Below are positions 9,038-45,784 of a stretch of 61,107 nucleotides of DNA, one piece after another (positions within the stretch are counted from its first letter, which is position 1; every line of letters starts with the position of its first letter). A program made the position numbers and the translations under genes. The notes beneath the pieces were generated by a model. It made no database searches, was not told the origin of the DNA, and saw only the letters and a list, made by a program, of their open reading frames with translations. The stretch lies in assembly GCA_049968235.1 (NCBI GenBank), contig JBMFRC010000018.1, forward strand, positions 1 to 61,107, read 5' to 3'. The stretch is from Candidatus Hydrogenedens sp. GTDB lineage: Bacteria > Hydrogenedentota > Hydrogenedentia > Hydrogenedentales > Hydrogenedentaceae.

Positions 9038-12000
9038 TTATAGGTTTTTATGAAGTTTTGAAGTATTCCATGTGAGAAAGGTGGTCAGAGATATTAAAAC
9101 TATAAGGGTAATCATACCTATGGGATTTGAGATAGGAACTCCCTGAGTGTATTTTATTTCTACGGGTGTACTCATAATGGTCTCTTTTTCGTCAGAGACT
9201 TCTACCCAGTAAGTCCCCGCATCTTCAGGCGACATTGCTGTGATTATAAATTCAGGATAATCTTCGCCGATATTCTCTCCATCTTTTTTCCATTGATAAG
9301 AAATTTCGGGAATTCCACCTACTACTTCTACTCGTAATGTATATGTATCGCCATCAATGACGGTTGCATTTTCAGGTTGAAGAACGAACTGCATGTGAGG
9401 GTATATCCCCAAATTCGCATAATTGGTAAAGACAACTTCTTCTCTTGAATCACCTACCTGGCAACGATAAGAGCCGGTGTATGTGCTATCAATATTTGTA
9501 ATAGTCCATTCATTGGAATTGGGTCCTACGGGTGTTCCACCATTTTTTAGCCATTGAAAATTTAATTCTCCGATACCACCACTTACATTGAAAGATAGTG
9601 TAACAGTATCTCCAATATAATAATTTCCCCCTACAACATAGGATAGAATTTTTATCCGATTGGTTACTGTTTTGCTTTTCGGTTCAACCAAACTATTGCC
9701 CGCAGGGTCTGTTCCTGTATTCACAGTAATTGTAATATCTTCTCCATTGGTTAGATTTCCTGCGTTCCATTTTAACAGGTAATGTCCATCTTCAATTTTT
9801 TGTACAGTATCGGGAGTTGTATTCAGAGTTCCTTTTCCGGGACCGGAAAGGCTATACCTCGAAACAAGAGTCATAAGGGGTTCCATAGGTTCGGAGAAAA
9901 AGACACGAATATTTCGGAAGTCTACAACTCGAACATCCATTACATATGGGGGCACACCAATGCTGGAGCAGATAACTTTATTAAACTGTGAGTCAATCAA
10001 ATTACCGAAAGTATCGCGGACATTTTGTACTTCAATCTGTACCAAAGACCCCCCCTTCATTTCACCCGTATCCCATTCAAGAATATAAGTCATAGGTTCG
10101 GTGTCCTGAACAATGCTTGATGGATGTAAAGAAAGCGTCCCTTTTCCGGATGCTCCGGGAGGGTTACTCAATGTGTAGTTACCGATAAAGAATACAGATG
10201 AGCCCATTTCTTTACTGTAAGTTATTTTTAATGTTCGTTCATTTACTGCAGATAGGGATAAAGCACGGGGCAATATTACCTCAAAAGTATCTGAGGCAGT
10301 GTTGTTAAGAGGGTCTATGAGATTTCCTGCCAAATCCTGAACATTATTTACCTGTACGGTAACTTCCTGCCCCTCAGATATTTCTGTCCCAGTTGTCCAT
10401 GAAATGGCATAAGTCGAGGGGTATCCAGTTACTTTTTCCACAGTTGAAGGTGGATTGCCCGGAAGTGTATCTATCCACCACAAATAATTGAGAGGATTGA
10501 GGGCACTTTCATCACCGGTTTCTCTCATTGCTTCTGAAAAAATGATATGTATTAGACGAGGTCCTTTGACATCGATGGAGACTAATTGAGGGAAAAATCC
10601 ACCTAAACCACTACCTATATGTGTGGCACTATTGGGAGTGCCAATAGGATTTCCTTGTGCATCAAATACATTGTTTACTGTGATGGTTACATCTCCACCG
10701 TTTTTCATCTCGCCGGAGTTCCAATTCAGGCGAACATGCTTATTATCAAGCACAGTTACCTGTGAGGGATTTTCCGCAAGAGTCCCTTTGCCATCTCCGG
10801 ATATAATATAATTTGCAGTATCCTCCAATTCTGTTAAACGCATAGGTTCAGAAAATTCAACTTCAACTTCTAAAGGTTGTGTTACAGTTACTGAAACCAC
10901 ATAAGCGGGAGTAGCATCAATAACATGTACTAAAAAGGTTTTATCATAATGTAAACCCATCATATCCGTTGCCCATACCTGAACAGTTACATAAGGATTC
11001 TCACTTCCATTTAATGCTTCTGGTAAATCAACGACCAATTGATTTCCATCAAGACGAAAGGCGCCATTTCCATTTTGGACTAAATTTAATATATGAGGTT
11101 CCTCTGGGTCTGGGTCAACTACGGTAAATTCTGCAACAATCGTTCCTTCTTCAACATTGTCCAAAACCTCCATATCCTCCGGATCTGGGATTATATCTGT
11201 AGGGTTAAAAAATCCTTCATCTGCACCTATATCAGGCGATGCGTAAAATGGAGGTAAAGGTCTATTTTGTCCTTCAAAATCGATATTGGTTGTATCTGTT
11301 GTCCCTGAATGTCCTAATGCACCGCTACCTGTCATTAGTTTTCCTACATCATCTAATTTCGGGTCGGCATAAATCATGATTTGTTCATCCGGTGCTGATT
11401 CAAAACCACCTTTACCGTCTGCGGAATTACGGTTCCATGCTAAATTATTCCATTCAAACCCTATTTCCCAAACAGGTGTAATATTCGATGCGTTTGGAGC
11501 ATCGAATATCGTTCCAGCAGAATACAATATGTCTCCGGTCCTGCCATGAATAAGCCAATTTGTTACAGGGTTACTTTCAGGGGAGGTGAGAGTAACATGC
11601 CGCAGACGAATCGTAGCAAAGGCAGAAGGAAATAGCGTATCGCTAAAACCACGGGTATCTATATATGATGGGACACCACCTCCGTAGAATATAGTATTCG
11701 TAATGTTTAGTTCAGGACCATAATTTCCACCTATGGCACCGGATCGAAAAGTTCCAGCACCAAAGCCCCACCAGCAGGAATCCATCTCTAACACGACAGG
11801 TCCTGTTAATTCTCCGCCTAAAGAGGTAATGGCATACCCTACATACGGTCTGATTATCCCCTTTGCTCGATAAAATTTTATTGAGCCCCGCAAGATGCGA
11901 GCGTAAGTTCCGGTATTATTGGTCATACCGTCCATATCCACCCAGTATATCGGAGATGGTGTTATATCATCTGCGGTATCAAACCAATCTTCGCCTGGCT

Positions 12001-13045
12001 CTAATCCTAAAATTTCCACCCGAGCACCACTTTGTTGAAAATTAAAGGCTCGCTCTCCACACGCACCTGTAAACACAGGTTTGTATAACCGATACACATT
12101 TGGCGTAGTGTGCGTATCTTCACCTAATTTATCGAACAAATTTGCGTTATTACTTCGAAATGAACAATTATAAAAAACTACCTGCGACCCGCCATCACTT
12201 GCTGTAGGGCTATCTGCTTTTATCGCGATGGCACTGTCGGAATATGTGCTACTGCCTTCGGGGGCAAATATACATTGTTCTAAAGTCATTTTCACCACAT
12301 TTTTTAATGACAGTCGAGTTCCTCTACCCTTAGCATAACTAAAGTCTACATATCGCAATTGTGCCTCCATTATCCCTGTTCCATTCATTGGTCCTAACAC
12401 TATCAAAGGTAAAGTCTGCTCTACCTCGTCCCCTCCTAAGAACCGCACCATATAAAATTGATGCTTACTTGCGGGAATATTTTGTAAATAAATATAATTC
12501 CCGTTGGGTGCTCCTGGTGTTTCCACTGGCTCCCACACTCGCTCCTTCTTAATAAAATTTGCTTTCTCAACGATGAACACCCCATTCCCATTTATCGAAG
12601 TAGCTATCAGTGGAGAAGAATAGGAAGAATATAAAGCAATTCTGTTATATACTCCCTCGTCATAGCCGATTATCTTCAAAATCTTTCCTGTTGTCGAATT
12701 ATTACTAAATACAGGATGGTTATTGTCCGGTCGAATCTCCGGGCGAATGCCTGTGGCAGCAATTACTTCTATATCCCCGCTATCTTCCAGAACCAATTCG
12801 GGGACTTCAAAGTAAACACCTTCACTTTGACTGGGTCCTTGCCATTCTATCCGTATTGTATGATTTCCCGGATTGGTACCCGTTGCATGTGTCCATGCAT
12901 CAGATAATTGTTCAAATCCCCATTCATTGGGATTACCTGTTGAGCCATTAGGAGCACCTTCGTAAATGCGGTATAAATCTGCATGAATGTTTGAATATGA
13001 AAGGATTAAGACAAAGAATAAAACCATACCCACTCGCCAGTTCAT
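9038..13045 (-). CDS. Giant secreted surface protein (1335 aa): signal peptide, beta-helix-like region, multiple Ig-like/Big-like repeats, C-terminal TM anchor with basic tail
   Basis: N-terminal MNWRVGMVLFFVLILSYSNIHA. Repeated GG.G…YQW.K.G … G(T/S)Y…V.D modules (e.g. YTGSYRCQVGDSREEVVF; AGTYWVEVSDEKETI). C-terminus VPISNPIGMITLIVLISLTTFLTWNTSKLHKNL. Confidence 0.7.
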   Translation of the reverse strand: MNWRVGMVLFFVLILSYSNIHADLYRIYEGAPNGSTGNPNEWGFEQLSDAWTHATGTNPGNHTIRIEWQGPSQSEGVYFEVPELVLEDSGDIEVIAATGIRPEIRPDNNHPVFSNNSTTGKILKIIGYDEGVYNRIALYSSYSSPLIATSINGNGVFIVEKANFIKKERVWEPVETPGAPNGNYIYLQNIPASKHQFYMVRFLGGDEVEQTLPLIVLGPMNGTGIMEAQLRYVDFSYAKGRGTRLSLKNVVKMTLEQCIFAPEGSSTYSDSAIAIKADSPTASDGGSQVVFYNCSFRSNNANLFDKLGEDTHTTPNVYRLYKPVFTGACGERAFNFQQSGARVEILGLEPGEDWFDTADDITPSPIYWVDMDGMTNNTGTYARILRGSIKFYRAKGIIRPYVGYAITSLGGELTGPVVLEMDSCWWGFGAGTFRSGAIGGNYGPELNITNTIFYGGGVPSYIDTRGFSDTLFPSAFATIRLRHVTLTSPESNPVTNWLIHGRTGDILYSAGTIFDAPNASNITPVWEIGFEWNNLAWNRNSADGKGGFESAPDEQIMIYADPKLDDVGKLMTGSGALGHSGTTDTTNIDFEGQNRPLPPFYASPDIGADEGFFNPTDIIPDPEDMEVLDNVEEGTIVAEFTVVDPDPEEPHILNLVQNGNGAFRLDGNQLVVDLPEALNGSENPYVTVQVWATDMMGLHYDKTFLVHVIDATPAYVVSVTVTQPLEVEVEFSEPMRLTELEDTANYIISGDGKGTLAENPSQVTVLDNKHVRLNWNSGEMKNGGDVTITVNNVFDAQGNPIGTPNSATHIGSGLGGFFPQLVSIDVKGPRLIHIIFSEAMRETGDESALNPLNYLWWIDTLPGNPPSTVEKVTGYPSTYAISWTTGTEISEGQEVTVQVNNVQDLAGNLIDPLNNTASDTFEVILPRALSLSAVNERTLKITYSKEMGSSVFFIGNYTLSNPPGASGKGTLSLHPSSIVQDTEPMTYILEWDTGEMKGGSLVQIEVQNVRDTFGNLIDSQFNKVICSSIGVPPYVMDVRVVDFRNIRVFFSEPMEPLMTLVSRYSLSGPGKGTLNTTPDTVQKIEDGHYLLKWNAGNLTNGEDITITVNTGTDPAGNSLVEPKSKTVTNRIKILSYVVGGNYYIGDTVTLSFNVSGGIGELNFQWLKNGGTPVGPNSNEWTITNIDSTYTGSYRCQVGDSREEVVFTNYANLGIYPHMQFVLQPENATVIDGDTYTLRVEVVGGIPEISYQWKKDGENIGEDYPEFIITAMSPEDAGTYWVEVSDEKETIMSTPVEIKYTQGVPISNPIGMITLIVLISLTTFLTWNTSKLHKNL

Positions 13046-14491: not shown

Positions 14492-14606
14492 AACACGAGA
14501 CTTTTATTATTTGAAAATATGTAAATATTTTAAAAGAAATTATGAATTAACAAGTATGATAGAATAATTAAAACGCAGTTAATACTCATGATATACTGAG
14601 GATAAT

Positions 14607-15893
14607 ATGAGAAAATCGTCACAGTTATCTTTATGGCAAGAGGAAAAAATCCTTCAGAATAAAGAGTCTTTGTTTAGTCCTATTAAAAATAAAAAAGTGC
14701 CAATACTTTTCAGAGAAACTATACCGGAAATACCTTCGACTACTTATGGTTCCTTTGGGATTTATAAATATCCGGCGAAATTTATTCCTCAGGTAATAGC
14801 ATTTATCTTAAAGGAATACACAAAACCTGGAATGGAAGTTTTTGACCCTTTTGCAGGCTATGGCACAGTGGGAGTTGTATCAAGAATTTATGGGAATCCA
14901 TATGAATTGTGGGACTTAAACCCCCTTATAAATACGATTCATAATACTGCGAGAATGGAATATCCCAAAGTTAACTTATGCGAACTTTTAAATGAAATTA
15001 AAAACTCAAAAAAAGAATTTATTCCCAATTGGTCTAATTTGAACTACTGGTTCCCCGAGGAATTCCTCTATGTATTATCAACATCATGGGGTTTTATTTA
15101 TTCTTTAGAGGAAAAGTTGAAATACTTGTTTCTTATCCCTTTATTAAAAGTTACGAAGTATTTTTCTTATGCAGATGAGAAGGTGCATAAGTTATATAAA
15201 TCGAAGCATTCTAAACAAAAGATAACGGAATTAGTAAAGAAGGATTGGAAAACGATTTTTTATAATATGCTTGAAAAAGAAGTAGGAAAGTTACAAAGAA
15301 GACTTTTTGAAAATCAATTATTAAAACCACAAAATATAAAATATAGAATAAGGTCAGGGATTGACACCTTAAAAGAAGAATTGGATAACGAAGTGGATGT
15401 CTTAATTACCTCTCCCCCTTATTTACAAGCACAAGAATATATTCGTTCAACGAAATTAGAACTTTTTTGGCTTGGTTATGATGAAACATATATTAAAGAA
15501 TTAAGCAAAAAAGAAATTCCTTATTGTACGGTTCCGGAGATTGACATTCATTCGCAAACATTTTATAAATATAGAGAACAAATAAAAGAGCACCATTTAT
15601 TATTGTTATACGACCGTTATTTTCATGGAATATTAGGTACTTTTTCTCGATTAGGAAATAAAGTTAAAAACTATATGTGTATTTTTGTAGGACCTGCGAA
15701 AATCCGGACGACCTCCATACCGATTGACGATATTATAATTGAGCATTTAGAGAAGATGGGGTGGCATCACGAGATAACCTATGTTGATAGAATTGTTTCG
15801 CGGGTAATGTTCGAGTCGAAAATAAATCCTGCTTCGGGAGAAGAGGATAGCAGAATAAAAACCGAACATTTGATAATTCTAAAGAGAGGTTAA
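14607..15893 (+). CDS. DNA amino-methyltransferase (N6-adenine or N4-cytosine), alpha-like motif order (motif I, long spacer, motif IV)
   Basis: Motif I FDPFAGYGTVG at about residue 80; motif IV DVLITSPPYLQAQEY at about residue 270. Confidence 0.75.
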   Translation: MRKSSQLSLWQEEKILQNKESLFSPIKNKKVPILFRETIPEIPSTTYGSFGIYKYPAKFIPQVIAFILKEYTKPGMEVFDPFAGYGTVGVVSRIYGNPYELWDLNPLINTIHNTARMEYPKVNLCELLNEIKNSKKEFIPNWSNLNYWFPEEFLYVLSTSWGFIYSLEEKLKYLFLIPLLKVTKYFSYADEKVHKLYKSKHSKQKITELVKKDWKTIFYNMLEKEVGKLQRRLFENQLLKPQNIKYRIRSGIDTLKEELDNEVDVLITSPPYLQAQEYIRSTKLELFWLGYDETYIKELSKKEIPYCTVPEIDIHSQTFYKYREQIKEHHLLLLYDRYFHGILGTFSRLGNKVKNYMCIFVGPAKIRTTSIPIDDIIIEHLEKMGWHHEITYVDRIVSRVMFESKINPASGEEDSRIKTEHLIILKRG

Positions 15894-15896
15894 TAT

Positions 15897-16877
15897 ATGA
15901 TACCCATAAAAAAGGGGGATATTAAAAACAGTGCAAAATTTAAAACCGTATTATCCACTTTGATTAGAGAACAACAGGAAATTATTTTTAATGAGAGTAA
16001 AATGTATTTTGAATTTGACGAATTGGGGGATTTATTACTTTCTGCTTGCAGAATGAATGATTTTGACATAGTTTTTTCCGAAGGGAAAAGAACTTTCTTA
16101 AATAACAAGAATCTTTTATCATGGATTTATGAAAAGATCATTCCTAATACGGTTATAGTTAGAATTGATGATGAAGATATTATTAGATTACTGTTATTTA
16201 GTATGGAAATTACATATCAAATGTTTTTGGGGGGAACAAGAGCAACGACAACCGCAAAAGGTTTTCGAGAAAGACGAAGAACATTTGAATCTATTCTGGT
16301 TGACCAATTTACAGGGAAATTAGGTGAAGTTATGCTTAAAAAATTTTTGGAGAAGAATTTTGTAGGGAAAAAGGTTGAACTGGATTGGGAAATATCGAGA
16401 CAGATAGAGAAATACAGAACAGATATTGTAAATTCAGAGAAAAAAATAAGTATCAAATCGTCGCCATCTTTAGGGGGGATATGGGCGGAAGCGGATATAG
16501 GTTATGATTATGGAATTATGGTGAAATGTTCTGTCCCTCAGCAGCCTATTTTGCAATTTTTCGTTGAAGTTTGTGGTTTTACAAGGCTTTTAAATTTTGC
16601 TGAGGATAAAATTCCTTCTTCGGATACCTTGTTTAGTAAATACTTAAATAATATGAGGGAGAGAGTAAAAAAATACAAATGTGGCGAAATACAAACCGAC
16701 CTAAAGGCTATTATTTGTGGATATTTTAATACAAAGAATTTTATGCCTGTTGAGCAAGGTATTGAACTACCTTATTTAGGAGTTATAAGAGAAAAAAGAT
16801 ATTTAACGCCTATAAATACATTGAAATGGCGAAAAGAGGAATGGAAAGAATTTTTTATTGAAGCGAAAATTAGATAG
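15897..16877 (+). CDS. Hypothetical protein, candidate cognate restriction endonuclease (no recognisable family)
   Basis: Starts 3 nt after the methyltransferase stop on the same strand. Low GC like the methyltransferase. Possible degenerate PD-(D/E)xK-like segment (DFDIVFSEGK), not confirmed. Confidence 0.3.
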   Translation: MIPIKKGDIKNSAKFKTVLSTLIREQQEIIFNESKMYFEFDELGDLLLSACRMNDFDIVFSEGKRTFLNNKNLLSWIYEKIIPNTVIVRIDDEDIIRLLLFSMEITYQMFLGGTRATTTAKGFRERRRTFESILVDQFTGKLGEVMLKKFLEKNFVGKKVELDWEISRQIEKYRTDIVNSEKKISIKSSPSLGGIWAEADIGYDYGIMVKCSVPQQPILQFFVEVCGFTRLLNFAEDKIPSSDTLFSKYLNNMRERVKKYKCGEIQTDLKAIICGYFNTKNFMPVEQGIELPYLGVIREKRYLTPINTLKWRKEEWKEFFIEAKIR

Positions 16878-16990
16878 AGAAATGATAATGAAATTTTGTT
16901 TTAAAAGGTTAATCTGATTTTCTATTAATATTTATTTTTTTACTATAAACAATATTTGAATTGTAATCTAAATTGTAAGAGGGTAGTTTT

Positions 16991-17383
16991 ATGAATGAAT
17001 ATTATCAGCAGTTAATTAAGCCTTCATGGTCACCACCCGCATGGGTATTTGGTCCTGTATGGACTGTGTTGTATATGATTATTTTTCTTTCTTATGGGAT
17101 AACATTCTGGATGGTGATTACTAAAAAGGTCCCAGTTTATATTTTGCTTCCTTTTGTATTAAATCTTATATTCAACTTTTTGTTTACACCGATTCAATTT
17201 GGATTGCGGAATAATTTTCTTGCAAGTATAGATATTCTGTGCGTATTGATGACTATCCTTGCTACAATCATTTTTATATACCCCTATAGTAAGTGGATTG
17301 CATTTCTTCAAATTCCTTATCTATTATGGGTGAGTTTTGCCACAGTTTTACAATTGACCATAACTTACCTTAACTGGAAGTAA
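16991..17383 (+). CDS. tspO: TspO/MBR tryptophan-rich sensory protein (short, 130 aa)
   Basis: KPSWSPPAWVFGPVWTVLY signature and W-rich TM helices. Confidence 0.8.
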   Translation: MNEYYQQLIKPSWSPPAWVFGPVWTVLYMIIFLSYGITFWMVITKKVPVYILLPFVLNLIFNFLFTPIQFGLRNNFLASIDILCVLMTILATIIFIYPYSKWIAFLQIPYLLWVSFATVLQLTITYLNWK

Positions 17384-17400
17384 TTTTATTTTTAGTGATA

Positions 17401-18804
17401 TTAATATCTATTCAATTTCTGTGTTGCTTTCTTAAATAAAAACCGGGTTCGTTCCGATTCATCGTGGTGATTAACTATGGGTGCGGGATAATTAATCCGT
17501 GGATAGTCCTTGTAAAACATATCCCATTGATGTATATGGTCAGAAGGCACACTTATTAATTCAGGTATCCATTTTTTTATGTATTCTGTTTCAGGGTCAA
17601 ATTTTTTTGATTGTAACCACGGGTTAAAAATTCGGAAATAAGGTTGTGCATCACAGCCGGTTCCTGCTACCCATTGCCAGTTTCCATTATTGACAGAAGG
17701 GTCATAGTCAATTAATTTTGTTGCAAAATATTTTTCACCCCATAACCAATCGATGTGCAAATCCTTTGTAAGAAAAGAACCTACAATCAATCGGGCACGG
17801 TTATGTAGCCAACCAGTTGTTTTTAATTCTCGCATTCCAGCATCTACAATTGGGAATCCTGTCATGCCCTCGGTCCATAAATTGAAAATAGTCTCATCTC
17901 TGTTCCACCATATATCCTGAAAAACTCTGTTAAAAGGTTTCCCAAATACATGGGGAAAATAAAATGCGATAATGGTGAAAAAGTCTCGCCAATATAATTG
18001 ACGGAGTATGGGTTCAGGGTCTGGATTGTCATTTTGTATTGCATGAAAGACTTCCCTGGGAGATAAACACCCAAATTTCAAGTAAGGCGATAGAAAGGTA
18101 TTTGCCTCCTTTATTAAAATATCTCTTTGTATCCTGTAGTTATGTAAAGTGCATGCCCTTTTCAATATTTTCAGACCTTCTTTTCGCCCACCTTTTAATC
18201 GAACTTTTTCATTTTTATCGGGCAAAAACTGCAACGATTTAATTTCTGTAATTTCTCCAGGAATATACCCTTGATAGTATTGTATATCTATTACTTTTTG
18301 CGGTTTATTAACAGGTATAGTCATTGCCTTTTTGTAAAAATGCGAAAAAACAATGATGGGAGTTTTTCTGTCACTCAGGGTATCTTCGGGCTGGGTTAAC
18401 AAAACATCATTCAGAGAATAAAATGTAATATTATGTTTTTTACAAAAATTGCTTATATCCTCATCGCGTTTTTTTGAGAAAGGAGTATAATCTCTATTTA
18501 TAAATAGCGCATCAAAAGGAATTTGTTTAAAAATCTTGAACAATACTTCCTCAGGTTTACCATAAAATAGGTATAATTTCCCTCCATTGTTAAGCAATTC
18601 TTTCTGGAGGTCCAATATGCTTTCCACCATAAATTGGACTGTAAAATTTCCACGATATGGATTGTTTTCTATCTGTTGAGGGTCAAAGATAAAACAAGGA
18701 AGAATTTGTTGACATACCTTTGCTCCATATACAAGAGCAGAATTATCCACTACTCTTAAATCCCTACGAAAAATAAATAAGCCCAAAGAATGTTTTTTAT
18801 TCAT
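17401..18804 (-). CDS. phr: Deoxyribodipyrimidine photolyase / cryptochrome family
   Basis: N-terminal LFIFRRDLRVVDNSAL and FAD-binding region WRDFF…GWLHNRARLIVGSFL. Confidence 0.85.
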   Translation of the reverse strand: MNKKHSLGLFIFRRDLRVVDNSALVYGAKVCQQILPCFIFDPQQIENNPYRGNFTVQFMVESILDLQKELLNNGGKLYLFYGKPEEVLFKIFKQIPFDALFINRDYTPFSKKRDEDISNFCKKHNITFYSLNDVLLTQPEDTLSDRKTPIIVFSHFYKKAMTIPVNKPQKVIDIQYYQGYIPGEITEIKSLQFLPDKNEKVRLKGGRKEGLKILKRACTLHNYRIQRDILIKEANTFLSPYLKFGCLSPREVFHAIQNDNPDPEPILRQLYWRDFFTIIAFYFPHVFGKPFNRVFQDIWWNRDETIFNLWTEGMTGFPIVDAGMRELKTTGWLHNRARLIVGSFLTKDLHIDWLWGEKYFATKLIDYDPSVNNGNWQWVAGTGCDAQPYFRIFNPWLQSKKFDPETEYIKKWIPELISVPSDHIHQWDMFYKDYPRINYPAPIVNHHDESERTRFLFKKATQKLNRY

Positions 18805-18897
18805 ATCACCTGTTATGTGTAGTAGTTTTGCAAAAATATTTGTTTATTAGTGTATAATTCATTATTCATATTACACAATACACGAGGGAAATTGAAA

Positions 18898-20520
18898 ATG
18901 CGTCGTGGTCCTGTAAAAGAATTAGGTTGGGGTAGTCGTTTTGGTTTGATTATGGCGATGGCGGGAAATGCAGTGGGTCTGGGTAATTTTCTTCGTTTTC
19001 CGGGACAAGCAGCACCCTATGGCGGTGCTTTTATGGTTCCTTACTTTTTGGCACTTGTGCTGATAGGTATCCCGTTAGCATGGATAGAATGGAGTATTGG
19101 CAGGAGGGGAGGTGCATACAAGCATGGAACGACACCGGGAATGTTCTATCGGCTCTGGAAACATCCTATATCAAAATATCTTGGTATCTTCGGAATACTT
19201 CTCCCTGCAATGGTCGGTATTTATTATATTTATATTGAGTCATGGGCGTTGGGCTATGCATGGCAAATGGCGGCAGGAATGCTTCGCGGGAAACACACAT
19301 ACGAAGAGATGAAAATGTCTTTTGGTTCGTATGTCGGAACTGCCAATGCGGGTTTAATTAGTTTCAGTAGTGTTTCATATACTTTTTTTCTAATTGCATT
19401 TCTAATAAATATTTTCGTTTTGGGACGAGGTATTGCAAAAGGTATAGAGATTGTAGCAAAGTATTGCATGCCTGTTTTGATAATATTGGGAATGATACTG
19501 GCAGTTCGCGTTTTAACTTTGCCACCCCGTGGAGAAAGTCAAACAGTGAGCCATGGCTTAGCCCAGATATGGCGATTAAGCCCACAGGATTTTCAAACTT
19601 TGATGCGTCCTCATGTATGGATTGCAGCAACAGGGCAGATATTCTTTACACTCAGTGTCGGTCTGGGAATGGTCCACACTTATGCTAGTTATCTCAAGAA
19701 AAAACATGACTTAACATTAAATGGGCTTACTGCCTGTGTGATCAATGAATTTGTTGAGGTTGTGTTAGGGGGGTCGATAGTTATCCCTGCGGCAGTGGTT
19801 TTTTTTGGTGTTGAAAGAGCCCGGGAAATTGTATCGACCGATGGAACTTTTGCAATTGGTTTCTATGCCCTACCACTTATATTTGAACAAATTCCTTATG
19901 GTGAAATTTTTGGTGTAATGTGGTTTTTCTTGCTTTTCCTTGCAGGTCTTACATCCAGTATGGCAATGTTTACCCCTTTACTTGTATTCCTGGAAGACGA
20001 ATTGCAAATAGACCGCAGGGTAGGGGTACTTCTTGTAGCATTTTTTGCGTTTATAATGATGCAACCTGTCATTTTATTCAATCATCATAAGGTTCTTGAT
20101 GAACTGGATTATTGGATGGGCACTTTTGGTCTGGTATTGTTTGTTGCGATAGAAACGGTTGTATTTTCATGGATATTCGGTATTGATAAAGGCTGGGAGG
20201 AGTTGCACATGGGAGCTGAATTAAAAATCCCAGGAATTTATTACTATATTATGAAGTACATTACCCCTGTTTTTTCAGTGGGTCTTGTAGTATGGTTTTG
20301 TTATGATGGGTTATTAGAAAAGATTACAATGCAAAATGTCCCTGCTGAAGACGTTCCGTATATATGGCTGGCTCGTATTATGATACTCATGACGACTTCT
20401 TTCCTTATGTGGGGCGTGTGGTATGCGTGGCAAACACATCCAAAATTTTTTGAAGATGATGAAGGAAGTAATTCCCAAAATTCTAATGATATGAAAAATA
20501 TTGAGGGTTCAATATCATGA
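18898..20520 (+). CDS. Sodium-dependent transporter, neurotransmitter:sodium symporter (NSS/SNF) family
   Basis: WGSRFGLIMAMAGNAVGLGNFLRFP signature. Start moved to the ATG at 18898 (MRRGPV…), which has a GAGGG Shine-Dalgarno; the upstream in-frame extension has no homology value. Confidence 0.85.
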   Translation: MRRGPVKELGWGSRFGLIMAMAGNAVGLGNFLRFPGQAAPYGGAFMVPYFLALVLIGIPLAWIEWSIGRRGGAYKHGTTPGMFYRLWKHPISKYLGIFGILLPAMVGIYYIYIESWALGYAWQMAAGMLRGKHTYEEMKMSFGSYVGTANAGLISFSSVSYTFFLIAFLINIFVLGRGIAKGIEIVAKYCMPVLIILGMILAVRVLTLPPRGESQTVSHGLAQIWRLSPQDFQTLMRPHVWIAATGQIFFTLSVGLGMVHTYASYLKKKHDLTLNGLTACVINEFVEVVLGGSIVIPAAVVFFGVERAREIVSTDGTFAIGFYALPLIFEQIPYGEIFGVMWFFLLFLAGLTSSMAMFTPLLVFLEDELQIDRRVGVLLVAFFAFIMMQPVILFNHHKVLDELDYWMGTFGLVLFVAIETVVFSWIFGIDKGWEELHMGAELKIPGIYYYIMKYITPVFSVGLVVWFCYDGLLEKITMQNVPAEDVPYIWLARIMILMTTSFLMWGVWYAWQTHPKFFEDDEGSNSQNSNDMKNIEGSIS

Positions 20521-20651
20521 TGACCTGGTACTCCTATTTATATATGTTTACAGTATGGGCGATTATTGTGGGATTAAATATTTATTGTTTTTATAGAGTT
20601 CTAACTAGTAAAAATATTATTACTCACGATGATGAGGAAGAGAATCGGTAA
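20517..20651 (+). CDS. 44-aa single-TM micro-protein overlapping the NSS stop (ATGA); candidate NSS small subunit (MetS-like)
   Basis: Translation MMTWYSYLYMFTVWAIIVGLNIYCFYRVLTSKNIITHDDEEENR: one hydrophobic helix plus an acidic tail. GAGGG 11-15 nt upstream. It is below the 60-aa cutoff of the ORF track. Confidence 0.4.
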   Translation: MMTWYSYLYMFTVWAIIVGLNIYCFYRVLTSKNIITHDDEEENR

Positions 20652-20702
20652 GTTATTGAACAATTATTTGAGAGGGACGGTTTATTAATATTTGAGATGG
20701 TG

Positions 20703-22442
20703 TTATTCCCAACGCGGGGTGATACTCTCACCGTAAGAAATAGGCGCTTCTACTTCGGGCAGTTTCACTTCAATTTCCAGGTTATCCAATAATGAACCTT
20801 CTGCTAAATAGAGGTCAATCAGAGCCTTTTCATACGAAATTTGTGCTTGCAGTTCCATCGTTTTTGCCATTGTATAATCTGTTTGCACCTGCAATACACG
20901 CCAACTTGTGCTTATCCCTAAACGAAGTCGTTTTTCTTCTGCAATAACATTGGCTTCTTGTAGTTTTCTTGCCTGACGATTACTTTCCACAAGAATGCGA
21001 TTGGTTTCTACATTCCGAATAGCGAGGTGCACGCCCATCATAATGGATTGTTCTATTTTCTTTTTGCGTTCTTCCATTTCTCGTTTGGTAAGTCGGGCTC
21101 TCTGAAAGGCTCCTCTACCCGCACGATTTCCAATAGGGATAGTGGCTTTTATACCATACGTATAATAAGTTTCATCATCATCACGAATGCCATAAAACAT
21201 TTTTGTAAGAGAACGGTCTCTCCCTCCCTGACCATAACTGCCGATTATATCCAATTGAGGGAGCATCTCATTTTTTGCCTGTAACATCTGAATGTCTGCA
21301 ATATCTATTTGTAAATCTGCCATTGCAATTTCCGGTCTATTTTTTAGTGCTTTTTCGACAGACTGGTCAAGATCAGGAGCAAGTTTTGAAAGGTCAAAGT
21401 TCTCATTTTCAAAACTATGGGGTCGGTCAGTAGGGATAATGAGAACTTTGGAGAACATATTTTCTTCTCTTAACATAAGTAAGTTTTTCAACATATCTGA
21501 AGCACTTTCTAACTGTGCTTGTGCGGCAACCAATTCACTTTGTCGTGTTGCAACCCCTGCTTTTGCCTGTAATACTTCTATGTCGGCAGCAGTTCCTATT
21601 TCTCTGCGTTTTTCACTAATAGATAAAAGTCGTTCTGCATTTGCTAGTGCTTCTTCTCGCACCTTCACATTTTCCATTGCCCCGACCAAATCCCAATAGG
21701 CTTTTATAATCTCATTTACGGTGTTCATAACAGTCATTTTTAATTGGTTTTCTCCAATTTTTTCGGATTTCTTTGCCATTTCCAATCGTGCAGTGTTTAC
21801 TTTGATGCCAAATCCTCGTAATAGGGGCTGGGTCAATGTAAATAAGAGTTGACCACTATAATCTTTTGTGAAATTGGAGAAGGAAGTCTCTTCAATACTT
21901 GTGTTAAAACTAACTGCATATTGAGTTCCTAACTTGAGCTTTCCCCCTAAACTTGATTCAAAGGTAGTTTGTTTTGTATCAAAACTGCTTACACCTGCGT
22001 ATGCCCGAATTTGTTGGCTTGCAAGGATAGATGCGTAGTTATGTTGGAGTGATGTTTGTAAAAATGGGTCAAACATTCCTTTCGCTGTTAATTGGTCTGC
22101 CTGTGCTTTTTTTGGTTCTAACCCACTGACGATAATATCCGGGTTTTGTTTCAATGCCATTTCTATACACTCCTGTAAAGACATACGTAATGCCGAATTA
22201 GGACCCCGTCGTTCTTCTGTTACCTTACGGAGTGCATCTAAGTCAATTAAATCTACGGATATTTCTTTTTTTAAATTTAGCTCCGTATTTCCTGATGATG
22301 TATCTTCAATAGCGTTCGGTTCGTTAATCGAATCTATTGTTTGTGTTTTAGCCGTATCCTGGGAGAAAACCGGATAGGTTAGCAGTAGGAAAACAATAAT
22401 GGGCATAAAAAACAAATAAATTTTTCTTTTTATCATAAACAT
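20703..22442 (-). CDS. TolC-family outer-membrane efflux protein (outer-membrane factor)
   Basis: Signal peptide plus tandem coiled-coil/barrel repeats with LSISEKRREIGTAADIEVLQAKAGVATRQSELVAAQAQLE, typical of this family. Confidence 0.8.
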   Translation of the reverse strand: MFMIKRKIYLFFMPIIVFLLLTYPVFSQDTAKTQTIDSINEPNAIEDTSSGNTELNLKKEISVDLIDLDALRKVTEERRGPNSALRMSLQECIEMALKQNPDIIVSGLEPKKAQADQLTAKGMFDPFLQTSLQHNYASILASQQIRAYAGVSSFDTKQTTFESSLGGKLKLGTQYAVSFNTSIEETSFSNFTKDYSGQLLFTLTQPLLRGFGIKVNTARLEMAKKSEKIGENQLKMTVMNTVNEIIKAYWDLVGAMENVKVREEALANAERLLSISEKRREIGTAADIEVLQAKAGVATRQSELVAAQAQLESASDMLKNLLMLREENMFSKVLIIPTDRPHSFENENFDLSKLAPDLDQSVEKALKNRPEIAMADLQIDIADIQMLQAKNEMLPQLDIIGSYGQGGRDRSLTKMFYGIRDDDETYYTYGIKATIPIGNRAGRGAFQRARLTKREMEERKKKIEQSIMMGVHLAIRNVETNRILVESNRQARKLQEANVIAEEKRLRLGISTSWRVLQVQTDYTMAKTMELQAQISYEKALIDLYLAEGSLLDNLEIEVKLPEVEAPISYGESITPRWE

Positions 22443-22663
22443 TTCCTCTTGTTTTTTATAAAGATTATAAATTGTTTGCTTTACAAAAATAAAAGATATG
22501 CTAAAATATAATTAAAATTTCTATCAGTGTAATAAAGAAAGGTATCACATTCAAAACGATAGACTCTTATTTTATTATGATAAAATAAAATCAAGTTATG
22601 TAATTATTACAAAATATTCTGGCAAATAGGATATAGAGAATCTGTTCGGTTTACATATATGTT

Positions 22664-23719
22664 ATGAAAATTGATAATCCAAAAATGAAAGTTTTAATTT
22701 TGTGGGGGGTAGTCCTTGTTAGTTTTGTGCTTTTTTGGATTTGCCACACTTATATTACTAATTATCAGAATTTCATTGAGCCTCAGAATTATTTATTACG
22801 AGCAGAATACTATTTACAGAATGGAAACAAAGATAAGGCTTTACATGAACTTGAATTTGGAATGAATACTTTTAGACCTGTGAGTTCTGAAGCACTGCTT
22901 TGTCTTATGAAAATAAAAAAAGGTATTTTGGATAAAAATGAATATAACGAATTAGAGAAGAAACATCAAATAATCGTAACTCTTGAGAATTGCACTTCTT
23001 CTGAAAATTTGCAATTAGATACTAAACTATTGAATACATCCGGAATTTCTTTACCTACATTGTCAAAACCCACTCAATCCATGGTTCTGTCTATGTGGAA
23101 ATTATTAACACGAAGTACTCTGAAATGTATGCAAAATGGAAATCTATCATGGAAACAAATATTGAACTTTTTATACTACTCTGGAGGTATTTTCTACCTT
23201 AACTCTAACATTGGTGATACAGGGTTTGTGATTGATGATGATGTTTTTGTAATCAGTGAAGGAAGCGAAGAGGGTAGTGGAGCACAAATATGGTTTCAAG
23301 GAAGAAATTTTGGGGGACATCGGAGAGGTTTTTATGTGTTGATATTAACTCCGCCTCCATGTAAAGTATATCGCTCTGACCGATTTGATGTTTGGGATAA
23401 CTATAACGAATCCATCAGGATGACCCGTTTTCTGGAAGAAGTTCCTGAAGGATATATAGGTATTTTTGCTGTGGCAGATGAGGCATCGGAAAATATGACA
23501 GAGGAATTGGAACGGATGCTTTTTTCTTTTGGTTTTGCCCCAAAAACCTATGTCCGAAGAGAAATGAAATTTTTTGGATATGGCTATGCCTTTTCGGGTA
23601 TCGGAGTAAAAGGAGCAGTTTCAGGAACGGCAATTCAAAACTGGGCTGAATATGACCCTTCAAAGAAAAAAATTCCATGGACTGTTTGTGGTGTGATGAG
23701 AGGGGAAAAGAAGCAATGA
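22664..23719 (+). CDS. Signal-anchored protein with TPR-like region and C-terminal ILEI/FAM3 (PANDER-like) domain
   Basis: N-terminal TM VLILWGVVLVSFVLFWI. The C-terminal ~110 aa (RRGFYVLIL…FDVWDN…PEGYIGIFAVADEASENMTEELERMLFSFGF…FFGYGYAFSG) follows the ILEI-domain pattern as I remember it from FAM3C. Confidence 0.45.
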   Translation: MKIDNPKMKVLILWGVVLVSFVLFWICHTYITNYQNFIEPQNYLLRAEYYLQNGNKDKALHELEFGMNTFRPVSSEALLCLMKIKKGILDKNEYNELEKKHQIIVTLENCTSSENLQLDTKLLNTSGISLPTLSKPTQSMVLSMWKLLTRSTLKCMQNGNLSWKQILNFLYYSGGIFYLNSNIGDTGFVIDDDVFVISEGSEEGSGAQIWFQGRNFGGHRRGFYVLILTPPPCKVYRSDRFDVWDNYNESIRMTRFLEEVPEGYIGIFAVADEASENMTEELERMLFSFGFAPKTYVRREMKFFGYGYAFSGIGVKGAVSGTAIQNWAEYDPSKKKIPWTVCGVMRGEKKQ

Positions 23720-45181: not shown

Positions 45182-45784
45182 ATGTTTTTTTCTCTTCTTT
45201 ATACAAAAATTCATCGACAGGAAAGTATATATCTTTTAGGTTGCATTTGTATTGTAGTCATTTTTTCTGGTTGTATATCAGGACCCTCTTTGCATTATTA
45301 CACTCTGGAAAATACAATTAAACCTATAGAGGATACATCTCCGCTATGTATTCAGGTAGCAAGTATCCGTTTAGCAGAGTCACTAAAACGAAAAGAGATA
45401 ATGGTCCGGAAAAATTCAGTTCAGGTGGATTATTACTCTGTTCATCTATGGGCTTCGAGTTTAGAGGAATTAATAACAAATAAAATAAATCAGACTTTTT
45501 TGTGTTATCAATCTGAAAAAAAATTACCGGATTATTATTTACATATTGATGTACTTAATTTTGAAGAAGTTGAAACATCGAATTCCCCTATTGCGTATGT
45601 TAAATATGTTGTCCAATTTTTAAATCCGGGGAATATGGAAGTTTTAGCCCAAAAGATTTATTCCATAGAAAAAGAATCTACCAGTAAAGGTGTCCCTGAA
45701 TTGGTAAAAACTTTTTCAAGTTGTGTTGATGAAATAATAAATAAAATATATGCAGATGCCAGGAATATTAATAAACCCGAATAG
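45182..45784 (+). CDS. ABC-transport auxiliary lipoprotein (DUF330-like) of the Mla/MCE operon
   Basis: Lipobox IFSGC; about 200 aa, sited directly after the MCE gene as in many mce loci. Confidence 0.5.
   Translation: MFFSLLYTKIHRQESIYLLGCICIVVIFSGCISGPSLHYYTLENTIKPIEDTSPLCIQVASIRLAESLKRKEIMVRKNSVQVDYYSVHLWASSLEELITNKINQTFLCYQSEKKLPDYYLHIDVLNFEEVETSNSPIAYVKYVVQFLNPGNMEVLAQKIYSIEKESTSKGVPELVKTFSSCVDEIINKIYADARNINKPE

What the first reader, a model, noticed from the sequence alone, without database searches (positions are those of the whole stretch)
14607..16877. Low-GC restriction-modification-like island with an unclassifiable partner gene
An amino-methyltransferase with motif I (FDPFAGYGTVG) about 190 aa before motif IV (SPPY) is followed 3 nt later by a 326-aa ORF with no recognisable family; only a weak DFDIVFSEGK possible nuclease core was seen. 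The two genes look markedly more AT-rich than flanking pfk and tspO (by-eye impression). They sit between unrelated housekeeping genes, consistent with horizontal acquisition. The partner could be a novel Type II endonuclease or a different effector
Basis: partly seen in the sequence, partly recalled or inferred. Interest (0 to 1): 0.5.

Follow-up and report, generated by a model that had tools for sequence, protein, structure and literature searches.

The report
ApeKI-like restriction-modification gene pair
The two genes are an ordinary but unannotated restriction-modification cassette inserted between pfk and tspO, and the "unclassifiable" partner is a distant relative of the known restriction enzymes ApeKI and TseI.

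Summary
A 428-aa amino-methyltransferase (motif I at residue 79, TSPPY at 269) is followed 3 nt later by a 326-aa ORF.

The partner can be classified. Its roughly 300-member family, all annotated "hypothetical" with no Pfam or NCBIfam match, aligns by profile-profile comparison (99.7%, E 3e-26, 277 columns) with the ApeKI/TseI Type II restriction endonuclease family (G^CWGC). I tied that family's PADLOC model to Aeropyrum pernix ApeKI through its neighbour, the M.ApeKI orthologue.

- The methyltransferase-endonuclease pair is conserved in 7 of 7 contexts across bacteria and archaea.
- Relatives Ca. H. terephthalaticus and L020 show the empty pfk-tspO site.
- A sister lineage keeps the methyltransferase (89%) but carries a frameshift and a stop codon in the endonuclease gene.
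- The GC claim holds only in part: GC3 is normal and tspO is equally AT-rich.

Specificity is unknown, with a weak hint of GCNGC or GCWGC. Methylation type is probably N4-cytosine. Verdict: a new member of a known kind, of modest interest.

The parts
14492..14606 (+). Upstream intergenic region of the cassette (20.9% GC). It contains the left insertion junction, about 40-50 bp after the pfk stop, and promoter-like hexamers (TTAAAA-18-TATACT with a TG, 14568-14597).
   Evidence: It is conserved between the window and sister lineage L007 but not with the empty-site genomes L016 and L020. The promoter scan is a consensus match only.
14607..15893 (+). Type II DNA amino-methyltransferase, 428 aa. 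The order is motif X/I (YKYPAKF...FDPFAGYGTVG, residues 53-89), then a roughly 175-aa target-recognition region, then motif IV (TSPPY, 268-272). This is the alpha-type arrangement. It probably makes N4-methylcytosine.
   Evidence: Pfam N6_N4_Mtase matches the motif I part only (E 1.8e-7). PADLOC MTase_II PDLC03322 matches over the full length (E 5e-26). The only solved-structure match is the N4-cytosine methyltransferase 8s9n, in permuted segment order. The family is 66-89% identical across phyla, and its invariant residues include FDPFAGYGT and ITSPPYLQAQEYIRSTK.
15883..15889 (+). Shine-Dalgarno-like AGAGAGG inside the 3' end of the methyltransferase gene, 7 nt upstream of the endonuclease ATG. 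This fits an operon with coupled translation.
Evidence: Read directly from the sequence.
15897..16877 (+). Type II restriction endonuclease, 326 aa, a remote member of the ApeKI/TseI family. It has an N-terminal domain (about residues 1-110) and a C-terminal nuclease domain (about 120-326). Candidate active-site residues are E144 (GKLGE), D163, D176, S185-I-K187 and D204.
16878..16990 (+). Downstream intergenic region (17.7% GC) containing the right insertion junction, about 20-30 bp upstream of the tspO ATG.
   Evidence: Alignment with the empty sites of L016 and L020 matches only the last 20-30 bp and tspO itself. No terminal repeats or target duplication were found.

Best explanation
This is a two-gene Type IIP restriction-modification operon, methyltransferase first and endonuclease second.

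The alpha-type amino-methyltransferase (TSPPY motif, most likely making N4-methylcytosine) modifies a short, probably palindromic site on host DNA. The 326-aa endonuclease is a distant member of the ApeKI/TseI family (about 20% identity to the ApeKI-type relatives in the profile alignment). It probably has a PD-(D/E)xK-type core with an E...D...D...SxK active site and probably acts as a homodimer like TseI. It cuts the same site when unmethylated, restricting phage and other foreign DNA.

The cassette was inserted between pfk and tspO in an ancestor of this Hydrogenedens lineage. It is mobile across bacterial and archaeal phyla.

Shown here:
- gene pair, motifs, and homology to the ApeKI family;
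- conserved linkage of the two genes;
- insertion (empty site in relatives);
- decay of the endonuclease gene in a sister lineage.

Inferred:
- nuclease activity of this particular copy;
- fold, dimer state, methylated base and recognition sequence (possibly GCNGC or GCWGC-like).
For: **Methyltransferase.** Motifs and the full-length PADLOC MTase_II match.

**Homology chain for the partner.**
- The window protein hits PADLOC REase_II PDLC03411 weakly (E 0.011, residues 115-191).
- A profile of its family recruits 10 full-length distant relatives (E 7e-10 to 4e-4). All of them hit PDLC03411 at 1e-19 to 4e-84.
- Profile-profile comparison of the two groups gives 99.7%, E 3.2e-26, over 277 columns.

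**PDLC03411 is ApeKI.**
- The A. pernix protein P0331 (350 aa) matches it end to end at 814 bits.
- P0331 lies beside a C5 methyltransferase whose termini, (L/M)SRYSTIS... and ...EVLDAV, equal those encoded by the published M.ApeKI cloning primers (PMC8557920).
- TseI, a biochemically characterised dimer of 378 aa, is described as closely similar to ApeKI (PMC3643589).
- Thermus plasmid relatives of 371 and 381 aa sit next to C5 methyltransferases.

**Every relative is methyltransferase-linked.**
- 7 of 7 contexts in the close family.
- 6 of 6 in the ApeKI branch, in varied orientations.

**Genetic signature.** In sister Hydrogenedens lineage L007-L010 (four independent assemblies) the methyltransferase is intact at 89%, while the endonuclease gene has a +1 frameshift and a K-to-stop mutation.

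**Insertion.** L016 and L020 have the empty pfk-tspO site.

**Likely functional copy.**
- E144, D163, D176, S185 and K187 are invariant in both groups, and D204 is nearly invariant.
- The window copy deviates only conservatively at 7 near-invariant sites.
- omega against the sister copy is 0.13.

Against: - No biochemical or methylome data exist for this subfamily.
- The direct hit to the endonuclease model is below significance (E 0.011), so the assignment rests on transitive and profile-profile homology at about 20% identity.
- Foldseek against the PDB found nothing.
- The canonical acidic residue of (D/E)xK is a serine here.
- The partner methyltransferase class differs from the C5 enzymes of the ApeKI branch.
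- Site avoidance does not single out one motif. GCNGC ranks first of 63 in the with-versus-without comparison (p = 0.0011), but this does not survive correction for 63 tests, and many other palindromes are more depleted.
- I could not compare directly with the K1 ApeKI or TseI sequences, because REBASE and GenBank were not available.
Confidence: 0.8

Rival explanations
1. The endonuclease homologue is catalytically dead or domesticated in this subfamily, for example as a DNA-binding specificity or regulatory protein. The pair would then act as an epigenetic methyltransferase plus accessory protein and would not restrict DNA.
For: The canonical (D/E)xK acid is replaced by serine. The direct similarity to the endonuclease model is weak. 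Within the subfamily both proteins are unusually conserved, at 58-75% identity across phyla.
Against: S-x-K is also present in the ApeKI-branch relatives, including the A. pernix ApeKI orthologue, so it is the family's normal motif. E144, D163, D176 and K187 are invariant across both groups. The sister lineage lost the partner gene while keeping the methyltransferase, which is the pattern expected for a toxic nuclease. The cassette moves as a unit into unrelated genomes.
Confidence: 0.07
2. The pair behaves mainly as a selfish addiction module (post-segregational killing) with little defence value. The mechanism is the same as in the best explanation, but the biological role differs.
For: The cassette is spread across bacterial and archaeal phyla with a constant 31-34% GC whatever the host. 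It has no mobility genes and sits at a synteny breakpoint in the L007 lineage.
Against: It was vertically retained with omega of 0.06-0.13 over a dS of about 0.6-0.8. Loss of the endonuclease alone is tolerated in the sister lineage. Addiction and defence are not mutually exclusive and cannot be separated in silico.
Confidence: 0.1
3. The partner is a modification-dependent (Type IV-like) or otherwise unrelated nuclease that merely neighbours an orphan methyltransferase.
Against: Gene order and 1-4 nt spacing are conserved in 7 of 7 contexts from unrelated hosts. The partner is homologous to ApeKI/TseI, which cut unmethylated GCWGC. A methyl-dependent nuclease co-transcribed with a methyltransferase would be self-toxic unless the two specificities differ.
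Confidence: 0.03

Closest known systems
ApeKI (Aeropyrum pernix K1) and TseI (Thermus sp.) Type IIP restriction endonucleases, G^CWGC; PADLOC REase_II model PDLC03411
   Same: Homologous over nearly the whole length (profile-profile 99.7%, 277 columns). Similar size: 326 aa against 350 and 378 aa. Shared G-x-L-G-E, D163, (T/S)-D176 and S-x-K187 core. Always linked to a DNA methyltransferase. Found in thermophile-rich lineages.
   Different: Only about 20% identity, and the direct HMM hit is not significant (E 0.011). The partner is an alpha-type amino-methyltransferase (TSPPY), not a C5 methyltransferase. No HhH-GPD glycosylase neighbour is present. Gene order is fixed (methyltransferase then endonuclease, co-directional), whereas orientation varies in the ApeKI branch. 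Hosts of the ApeKI branch deplete GCWGC but not GCSGC, while hosts of this subfamily deplete both mildly, so specificity may differ.
Hjc archaeal Holliday-junction resolvases (PDB 2wcw, 1ob8), minimal PD-(D/E)xK nucleases
   Different: There is no detectable sequence similarity. The (D/E)xK acid is Ser here. This protein has an extra N-terminal domain and helical insertions. Its function is restriction, not junction resolution.
Beta-class N4-cytosine and N6-adenine methyltransferases of Pfam N6_N4_Mtase (PF01555), e.g. the N4-cytosine methyltransferase of PDB 8s9n
   Same: Same motif X/I block (HPA-like KYPAKF...FDPFAGxGT) and the same TSPPY motif IV.
   Different: The order is circularly permuted (I then TRD then IV, against IV then TRD then I), so only half of the Pfam model matches. 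A roughly 175-aa insert lies between the motifs.

Membership tests
Type II (IIP) restriction-modification system | Separate, adjacent methyltransferase and endonuclease genes that are inherited together | tested here: met
   The genes are 3 nt apart in the window. The same pair and order occur in 7 of 7 contexts from unrelated hosts.
Type II (IIP) restriction-modification system | Methyltransferase with an AdoMet-binding motif I and a catalytic motif IV | tested here: met
   FDPFAGYGTVG at residue 79 and TSPPY at 268-272, both invariant in the family. PADLOC MTase_II E 5e-26.
Type II (IIP) restriction-modification system | The endonuclease cleaves a defined site that the cognate methyltransferase protects | not testable with these tools
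   This needs biochemistry or methylome data. Site avoidance gives only a weak hint.
ApeKI/TseI restriction endonuclease family (PADLOC PDLC03411) | Significant sequence similarity to the family profile | tested here: met
   The direct hmmscan hit is only E 0.011. However, 10 of 10 intermediates hit at 1e-19 to 4e-84, and profile-profile comparison gives 99.7%, E 3.2e-26 over 277 columns.
ApeKI/TseI restriction endonuclease family (PADLOC PDLC03411) | Conservation of the family's invariant core residues | tested here: met
   R128, G140, L142, G143, E144, D163, D176, S185, K187, L219, G275 and L309 are invariant across both groups.
ApeKI/TseI restriction endonuclease family (PADLOC PDLC03411) | Paired with a C5 cytosine methyltransferase of M.ApeKI type | tested here: not met
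   The partner here is an amino-methyltransferase. ApeKI-branch relatives all sit next to PF00145 or an annotated DNA cytosine methyltransferase. This feature describes the system, not the endonuclease fold.
ApeKI/TseI restriction endonuclease family (PADLOC PDLC03411) | Recognition of G^CWGC | tested here: inconclusive
   GCWGC in the window is 17 observed against 44.5 expected, but GCSGC is also depleted (8 against 17.2). The with-versus-without tests give p = 0.0011 for GCNGC and 0.0057 for GCWGC, not significant after correction for 63 motifs. The positive controls behave differently.
PD-(D/E)xK nuclease superfamily | Alpha-beta-beta-beta-alpha-beta core fold | tested here: inconclusive
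PD-(D/E)xK nuclease superfamily | Catalytic D...(D/E)xK motif | tested here: inconclusive
   A variant is present: E144...D176...S185-x-K187, plus invariant D163 and near-invariant D204. The roles of these residues are inferred, and the model coordinates could not be inspected.
HNH or GIY-YIG nucleases | Family HMM match or signature motif | tested here: not met
Alpha-class amino-methyltransferases (N6A or N4C) | Motif order X/I, then TRD, then IV | tested here: met
   Motif I lies 190 residues before motif IV. The match to the beta-class 8s9n is in permuted order.
N4-cytosine methyltransferases | Methylation of the exocyclic N4 of cytosine | not testable with these tools
   TSPPY, and the fact that the only solved-structure hit is an N4-cytosine enzyme, point this way. 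Motif IV alone does not decide the target base.

The most novel reading that the evidence does not exclude
This roughly 300-member subfamily is a functionally distinct offshoot of the ApeKI/TseI endonucleases. It has switched from C5 to N4-cytosine protection and has a changed or relaxed specificity, for example GCNGC or another site. Its atypical E...D...D...SxK active site would also give the long-unassigned ApeKI/TseI family its first fold and active-site assignment, and the subfamily could supply new thermostable enzymes.
Probability: 0.3. Interest if true: 0.4.

Novelty: new member of a known kind. Interest (0 to 1): 0.3.

Why it matters
- **Annotation.** About 300 endonuclease and many more methyltransferase sequences are labelled "hypothetical" in databases. 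They occur in Hydrogenedentes, WOR-3, Marinimicrobia, Thermotogae, Archaeoglobi, Thermoplasmata and Altarchaeales. They can now be annotated as a Type II restriction-modification system related to ApeKI/TseI.
- **Fold hypothesis.** The work gives a testable fold and active-site hypothesis (PD-(D/E)xK-like; E144, D163, D176, S-x-K187) for a commercial enzyme family that was listed as "Unknown superfamily" in 2008 and was still unsolved in 2013.
- **Natural history.** The locus shows a complete sequence in closely related genomes: empty site, intact cassette, and endonuclease pseudogene beside a retained methyltransferase.

None of this changes how restriction-modification systems are understood.

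Tried and rejected
- **Direct family and structure searches of the partner.** Pfam, NCBIfam and phmmer against the PDB found nothing.
- **Foldseek against the PDB.** No hit at E < 1. The afdb50 library was not available.
- **tblastn of the partner against phage and plasmid collections.** No match. No relative was found on IMG/VR viral contigs either, so no vector was identified.
Rejected because it is not conserved.
- **Nucleotide search for the M.ApeKI primers in L015.** No match at up to 3 mismatches, because the strain differs. The test succeeded only at the protein level.
- **Word-indexed search with the ApeKI-branch alignment.** It returned only 5 proteins and no informative names. Cluster names were all "hypothetical".
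- **Terminal repeats or target-site duplication.** Only short AT-rich chance matches were found.
- **Site avoidance to infer specificity.** Not diagnostic. The orthologous-region comparison gave 4 against 5 GCWGC sites, which has no statistical power.
- **Profile of the methyltransferase family against the PDB.** It gave only a weak, permuted hit to an N4-cytosine methyltransferase.
Full report
**1. Observation.**
The window comes from a Candidatus Hydrogenedens sp. metagenome-assembled genome. Both proteins are found at 100% identity on a 61,107-bp contig annotated as that organism. ORF 14607-15893 (+, 428 aa) and ORF 15897-16877 (+, 326 aa) exist as described, separated by TAA-TAT-ATG. An AGAGAGG Shine-Dalgarno-like element lies within the end of the first gene. 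FDPFAGYGTVG begins at residue 79 and SPPY at 269, 190 residues apart. DFDIVFSEGK is at residues 55-64 of the second protein.

The AT-richness claim is only partly right.
- Whole-gene GC is 32.0% and 31.4%, against 37.5% +/- 2.1% for 44 other genes (z = -2.6 and -2.9).
- GC3 is 29.6% and 26.9%, which equals the genomic norm of 29.0% +/- 3.0%.
- tspO is just as AT-rich at 32.8%.
- The deficit lies in codon positions 1 and 2 and reflects proteins rich in F, Y, N, K and I.

**2. The methyltransferase.**
Pfam N6_N4_Mtase matches only residues 41-93, the motif X/I half of a model built for the permuted beta-class order. PADLOC MTase_II PDLC03322 matches over the full length at E 5e-26. The only solved-structure match, for the single sequence and for a family profile, is the N4-cytosine methyltransferase 8s9n. 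The two segments align in swapped order: TSPPY to the chain's N-terminus and FDPFAGxGT to its C-terminus. The enzyme is therefore an alpha-type amino-methyltransferase (I, then TRD, then IV).

TSPPY is, from general knowledge of amino-methyltransferase motifs, more typical of N4-cytosine than of N6-adenine enzymes. I regard N4-methylcytosine as likely but unproven.

**3. The partner has a family.**
Pfam, NCBIfam and PDB sequence searches are empty. The protein belongs to a tight family of about 300 clusters at 58-75% identity. The family spans Hydrogenedentes, Bacteroidales, WOR-3, Marinimicrobia, Thermotoga, Altarchaeaceae, Archaeoglobaceae and Thermoplasmata, and every member is "hypothetical".

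The only direct hint was PADLOC REase_II PDLC03411 at E 0.011, over residues 115-191. An exhaustive HMM search with the family alignment over 1.84 billion representatives found only 82 hits. All ten full-length distant hits (E 7e-10 to 4e-4) match PDLC03411 at 1e-19 to 4e-84 and have no Pfam or NCBIfam match. Profile-profile comparison of the two groups gives 99.7% probability, E 3.2e-26, over 277 columns covering residues 24-325 of the window protein.

**4. What PDLC03411 is.**
- An Aeropyrum pernix protein (P0331, 350 aa) matches the 350-position model end to end at 814 bits.
- In its contig it lies tail to tail with a 469-aa C5 methyltransferase, next to a HhH-GPD glycosylase.
- The paper characterising M.ApeKI (PMC8557920) gives cloning primers that encode MSRYSTIS... 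and ...EVLDAV-stop. The neighbour of P0331 starts (L/M)SRYSTIS and ends EVLDAV-stop. The nucleotide sequences differ because the strain is different.
- The neighbour is therefore the M.ApeKI orthologue, and P0331 is the ApeKI (G^CWGC) orthologue.
- PMC3643589 states that TseI (Thermus, 378 aa, G^CWGC, homodimer) is closely similar to ApeKI and has no solved structure.
- Consistent with that, Thermus plasmids carry 371-aa and 381-aa relatives, PDLC03411-positive, overlapping a DNA cytosine methyltransferase gene.
- Three further ApeKI-branch relatives sit beside PF00145 methyltransferases in varied orientations.

**5. Active site and fold.**
Residues invariant in both groups are R128, G140, L142, G143, E144, D163, D176, S185, K187, L219, G275 and L309. 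D204 is nearly invariant.

Other PD-(D/E)xK nucleases also appear (I-Ssp6803I, D212, NhoI, DpnI, McrC, PA endonuclease), but many helix-only hits score similarly.

The order of elements is helix with E144, then strands with D163 and D176, then a strand with S185-x-K187. This fits a PD-(D/E)xK core in which Ser replaces the usual acid. From memory, this resembles the S-x-K variants of the Cfr10I/NgoMIV group, and I did not test that resemblance. Orlowski and Bujnicki (2008, PMC2441816) listed the ApeKI subfamily under "Unknown superfamily". I treat the fold assignment as probable, not established.

**6. Genetics and history.**
The methyltransferase-endonuclease pair, in the same order and 1-4 nt apart, occurs with unrelated flanks in several hosts:
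- a 1.8-Mb contig (L001);
- an Archaeoglobaceae genome (L003);
- a WOR-3 genome (L006);
- L043 and L044.

The cassette stays at 31-34% GC even where the flanks are 42-52% GC.

Candidatus Hydrogenedens terephthalaticus (L016, pfk 87% identical) has the window's gene order exactly, but with pfk followed after 145 bp by tspO. L020 is likewise empty, with a 97-bp gap. The junctions lie about 40-50 bp after the pfk stop and 20-30 bp before the tspO start. There are no repeats or mobility genes.

A sister lineage (L007-L010, four independent assemblies) has pfk, then a methyltransferase that is 89% identical and intact, then an endonuclease gene with a +1 frameshift in an A-run just before the S-x-K codons and an AAA-to-TAA stop. 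dS is 0.81 for pfk, 0.83 for the methyltransferase and 0.59 for the endonuclease. omega is 0.08, 0.06 and 0.13. The cassette was therefore already present when the lineages split, and the inactivation is recent. Loss of the endonuclease with retention of the methyltransferase is the expected decay path for a restriction-modification system. The window copy differs only conservatively at 7 near-invariant positions and is probably active.

**7. Specificity.**
Palindrome statistics in the window show strong general avoidance:
- GATC, 14 observed against 176 expected;
- CTAG, 7 against 84;
- AGCT, 18 against 99;
- GGCC, 11 against 74.

GCWGC is 17 against 44.5 and GCSGC is 8 against 17.2.

As a positive control, hosts of the ApeKI branch deplete GCWGC but not GCSGC: 3/13.1 against 46/48.3, 3/9.7 against 32/40.6, 8/36.9 against 40/51, and 14/29 against 34/29.5.

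Comparing Hydrogenedens DNA with the cassette and without it, GCNGC (27/79.6 against 53/75.5, p = 0.0011) and GCWGC (p = 0.0057) rank first and second of 63 motifs. Neither survives Bonferroni correction. In five unrelated hosts GCNGC is 45 against 78.2, rank 10 of 64. This hints at a GCNGC or GCWGC-like target and nothing firmer.

m4C methylation of a GCWGC-containing motif has been reported in archaea (M.Hme33500II, listed in PMC11033074).

**8. Verdict.**
This is a Type IIP restriction-modification cassette whose endonuclease is a remote, unannotated branch of the ApeKI/TseI family, paired with an amino-methyltransferase instead of a C5 methyltransferase. It is a new member of a known kind. 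Its value lies in annotation and enzyme discovery, and it does not alter concepts in the field.

Noticed in passing
window 1-61107: Short palindromes are very strongly avoided across the whole window: GATC 14 observed against 176 expected, CTAG 7 against 84, AGCT 18 against 99, GGCC 11 against 74, GCGC 11 against 44. This suggests pressure from several other restriction systems in this genome.
   Followed up: partly
L015:3245-3916 and L014:1800-2516: A HhH-GPD (EndoIII/MutY-type) glycosylase gene lies next to the ApeKI-type endonuclease and C5 methyltransferase pair in A. pernix and in another archaeal contig. It may repair T:G mismatches from m5C deamination, which the literature says A. pernix should need (PMC11033074). 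The window cassette has no such gene.
   Followed up: no
L011, L012, L014, L015 (whole loci): Hosts and plasmids that carry ApeKI/TseI-type systems are depleted in GCWGC but not in GCSGC, even within 8-9 kb (for example 3/13.1 against 46/48.3). This shows that short flanks can reveal specificity in GC-rich hosts.
   Followed up: partly
L007:2381-6447, compared with window 9038-13045: In the sister lineage the orthologue of the 1335-aa Ig-like surface protein is called as three ORFs (692, 173 and 445 aa), although tblastn shows contiguous similarity. It may be fragmented there too.
   Followed up: no
L007:10395-17287, compared with window 16991-22442: Gene order downstream of the cassette differs between the two cassette-bearing lineages (Lipase_GDSL, URO-D and others, against tspO, photolyase, SNF and OEP), and the OEP gene lies upstream in L007. 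The 3' end of the cassette therefore coincides with a synteny breakpoint.
   Followed up: partly
window 16991-17383 (tspO): tspO is as AT-rich (32.8% GC, z = -2.2) as the cassette, although it is ancestral at this locus (92% identical protein in L016). Low GC alone is therefore not a reliable island marker in this genome.
   Followed up: yes
window 22250-23000 and 45182-45784: The stretch at 22250-23000 has about 27% GC. The gene at 45182-45784 has the lowest GC in the window (30.8%, GC3 21.4%). Neither was examined.
   Followed up: no
L003:3504-8437: In the Archaeoglobaceae contig the cassette lies close to a 1101-aa SNF2/helicase protein with a NOV_C domain and to a DUF1156 protein. This looks like a cluster of defence genes.
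   Followed up: no
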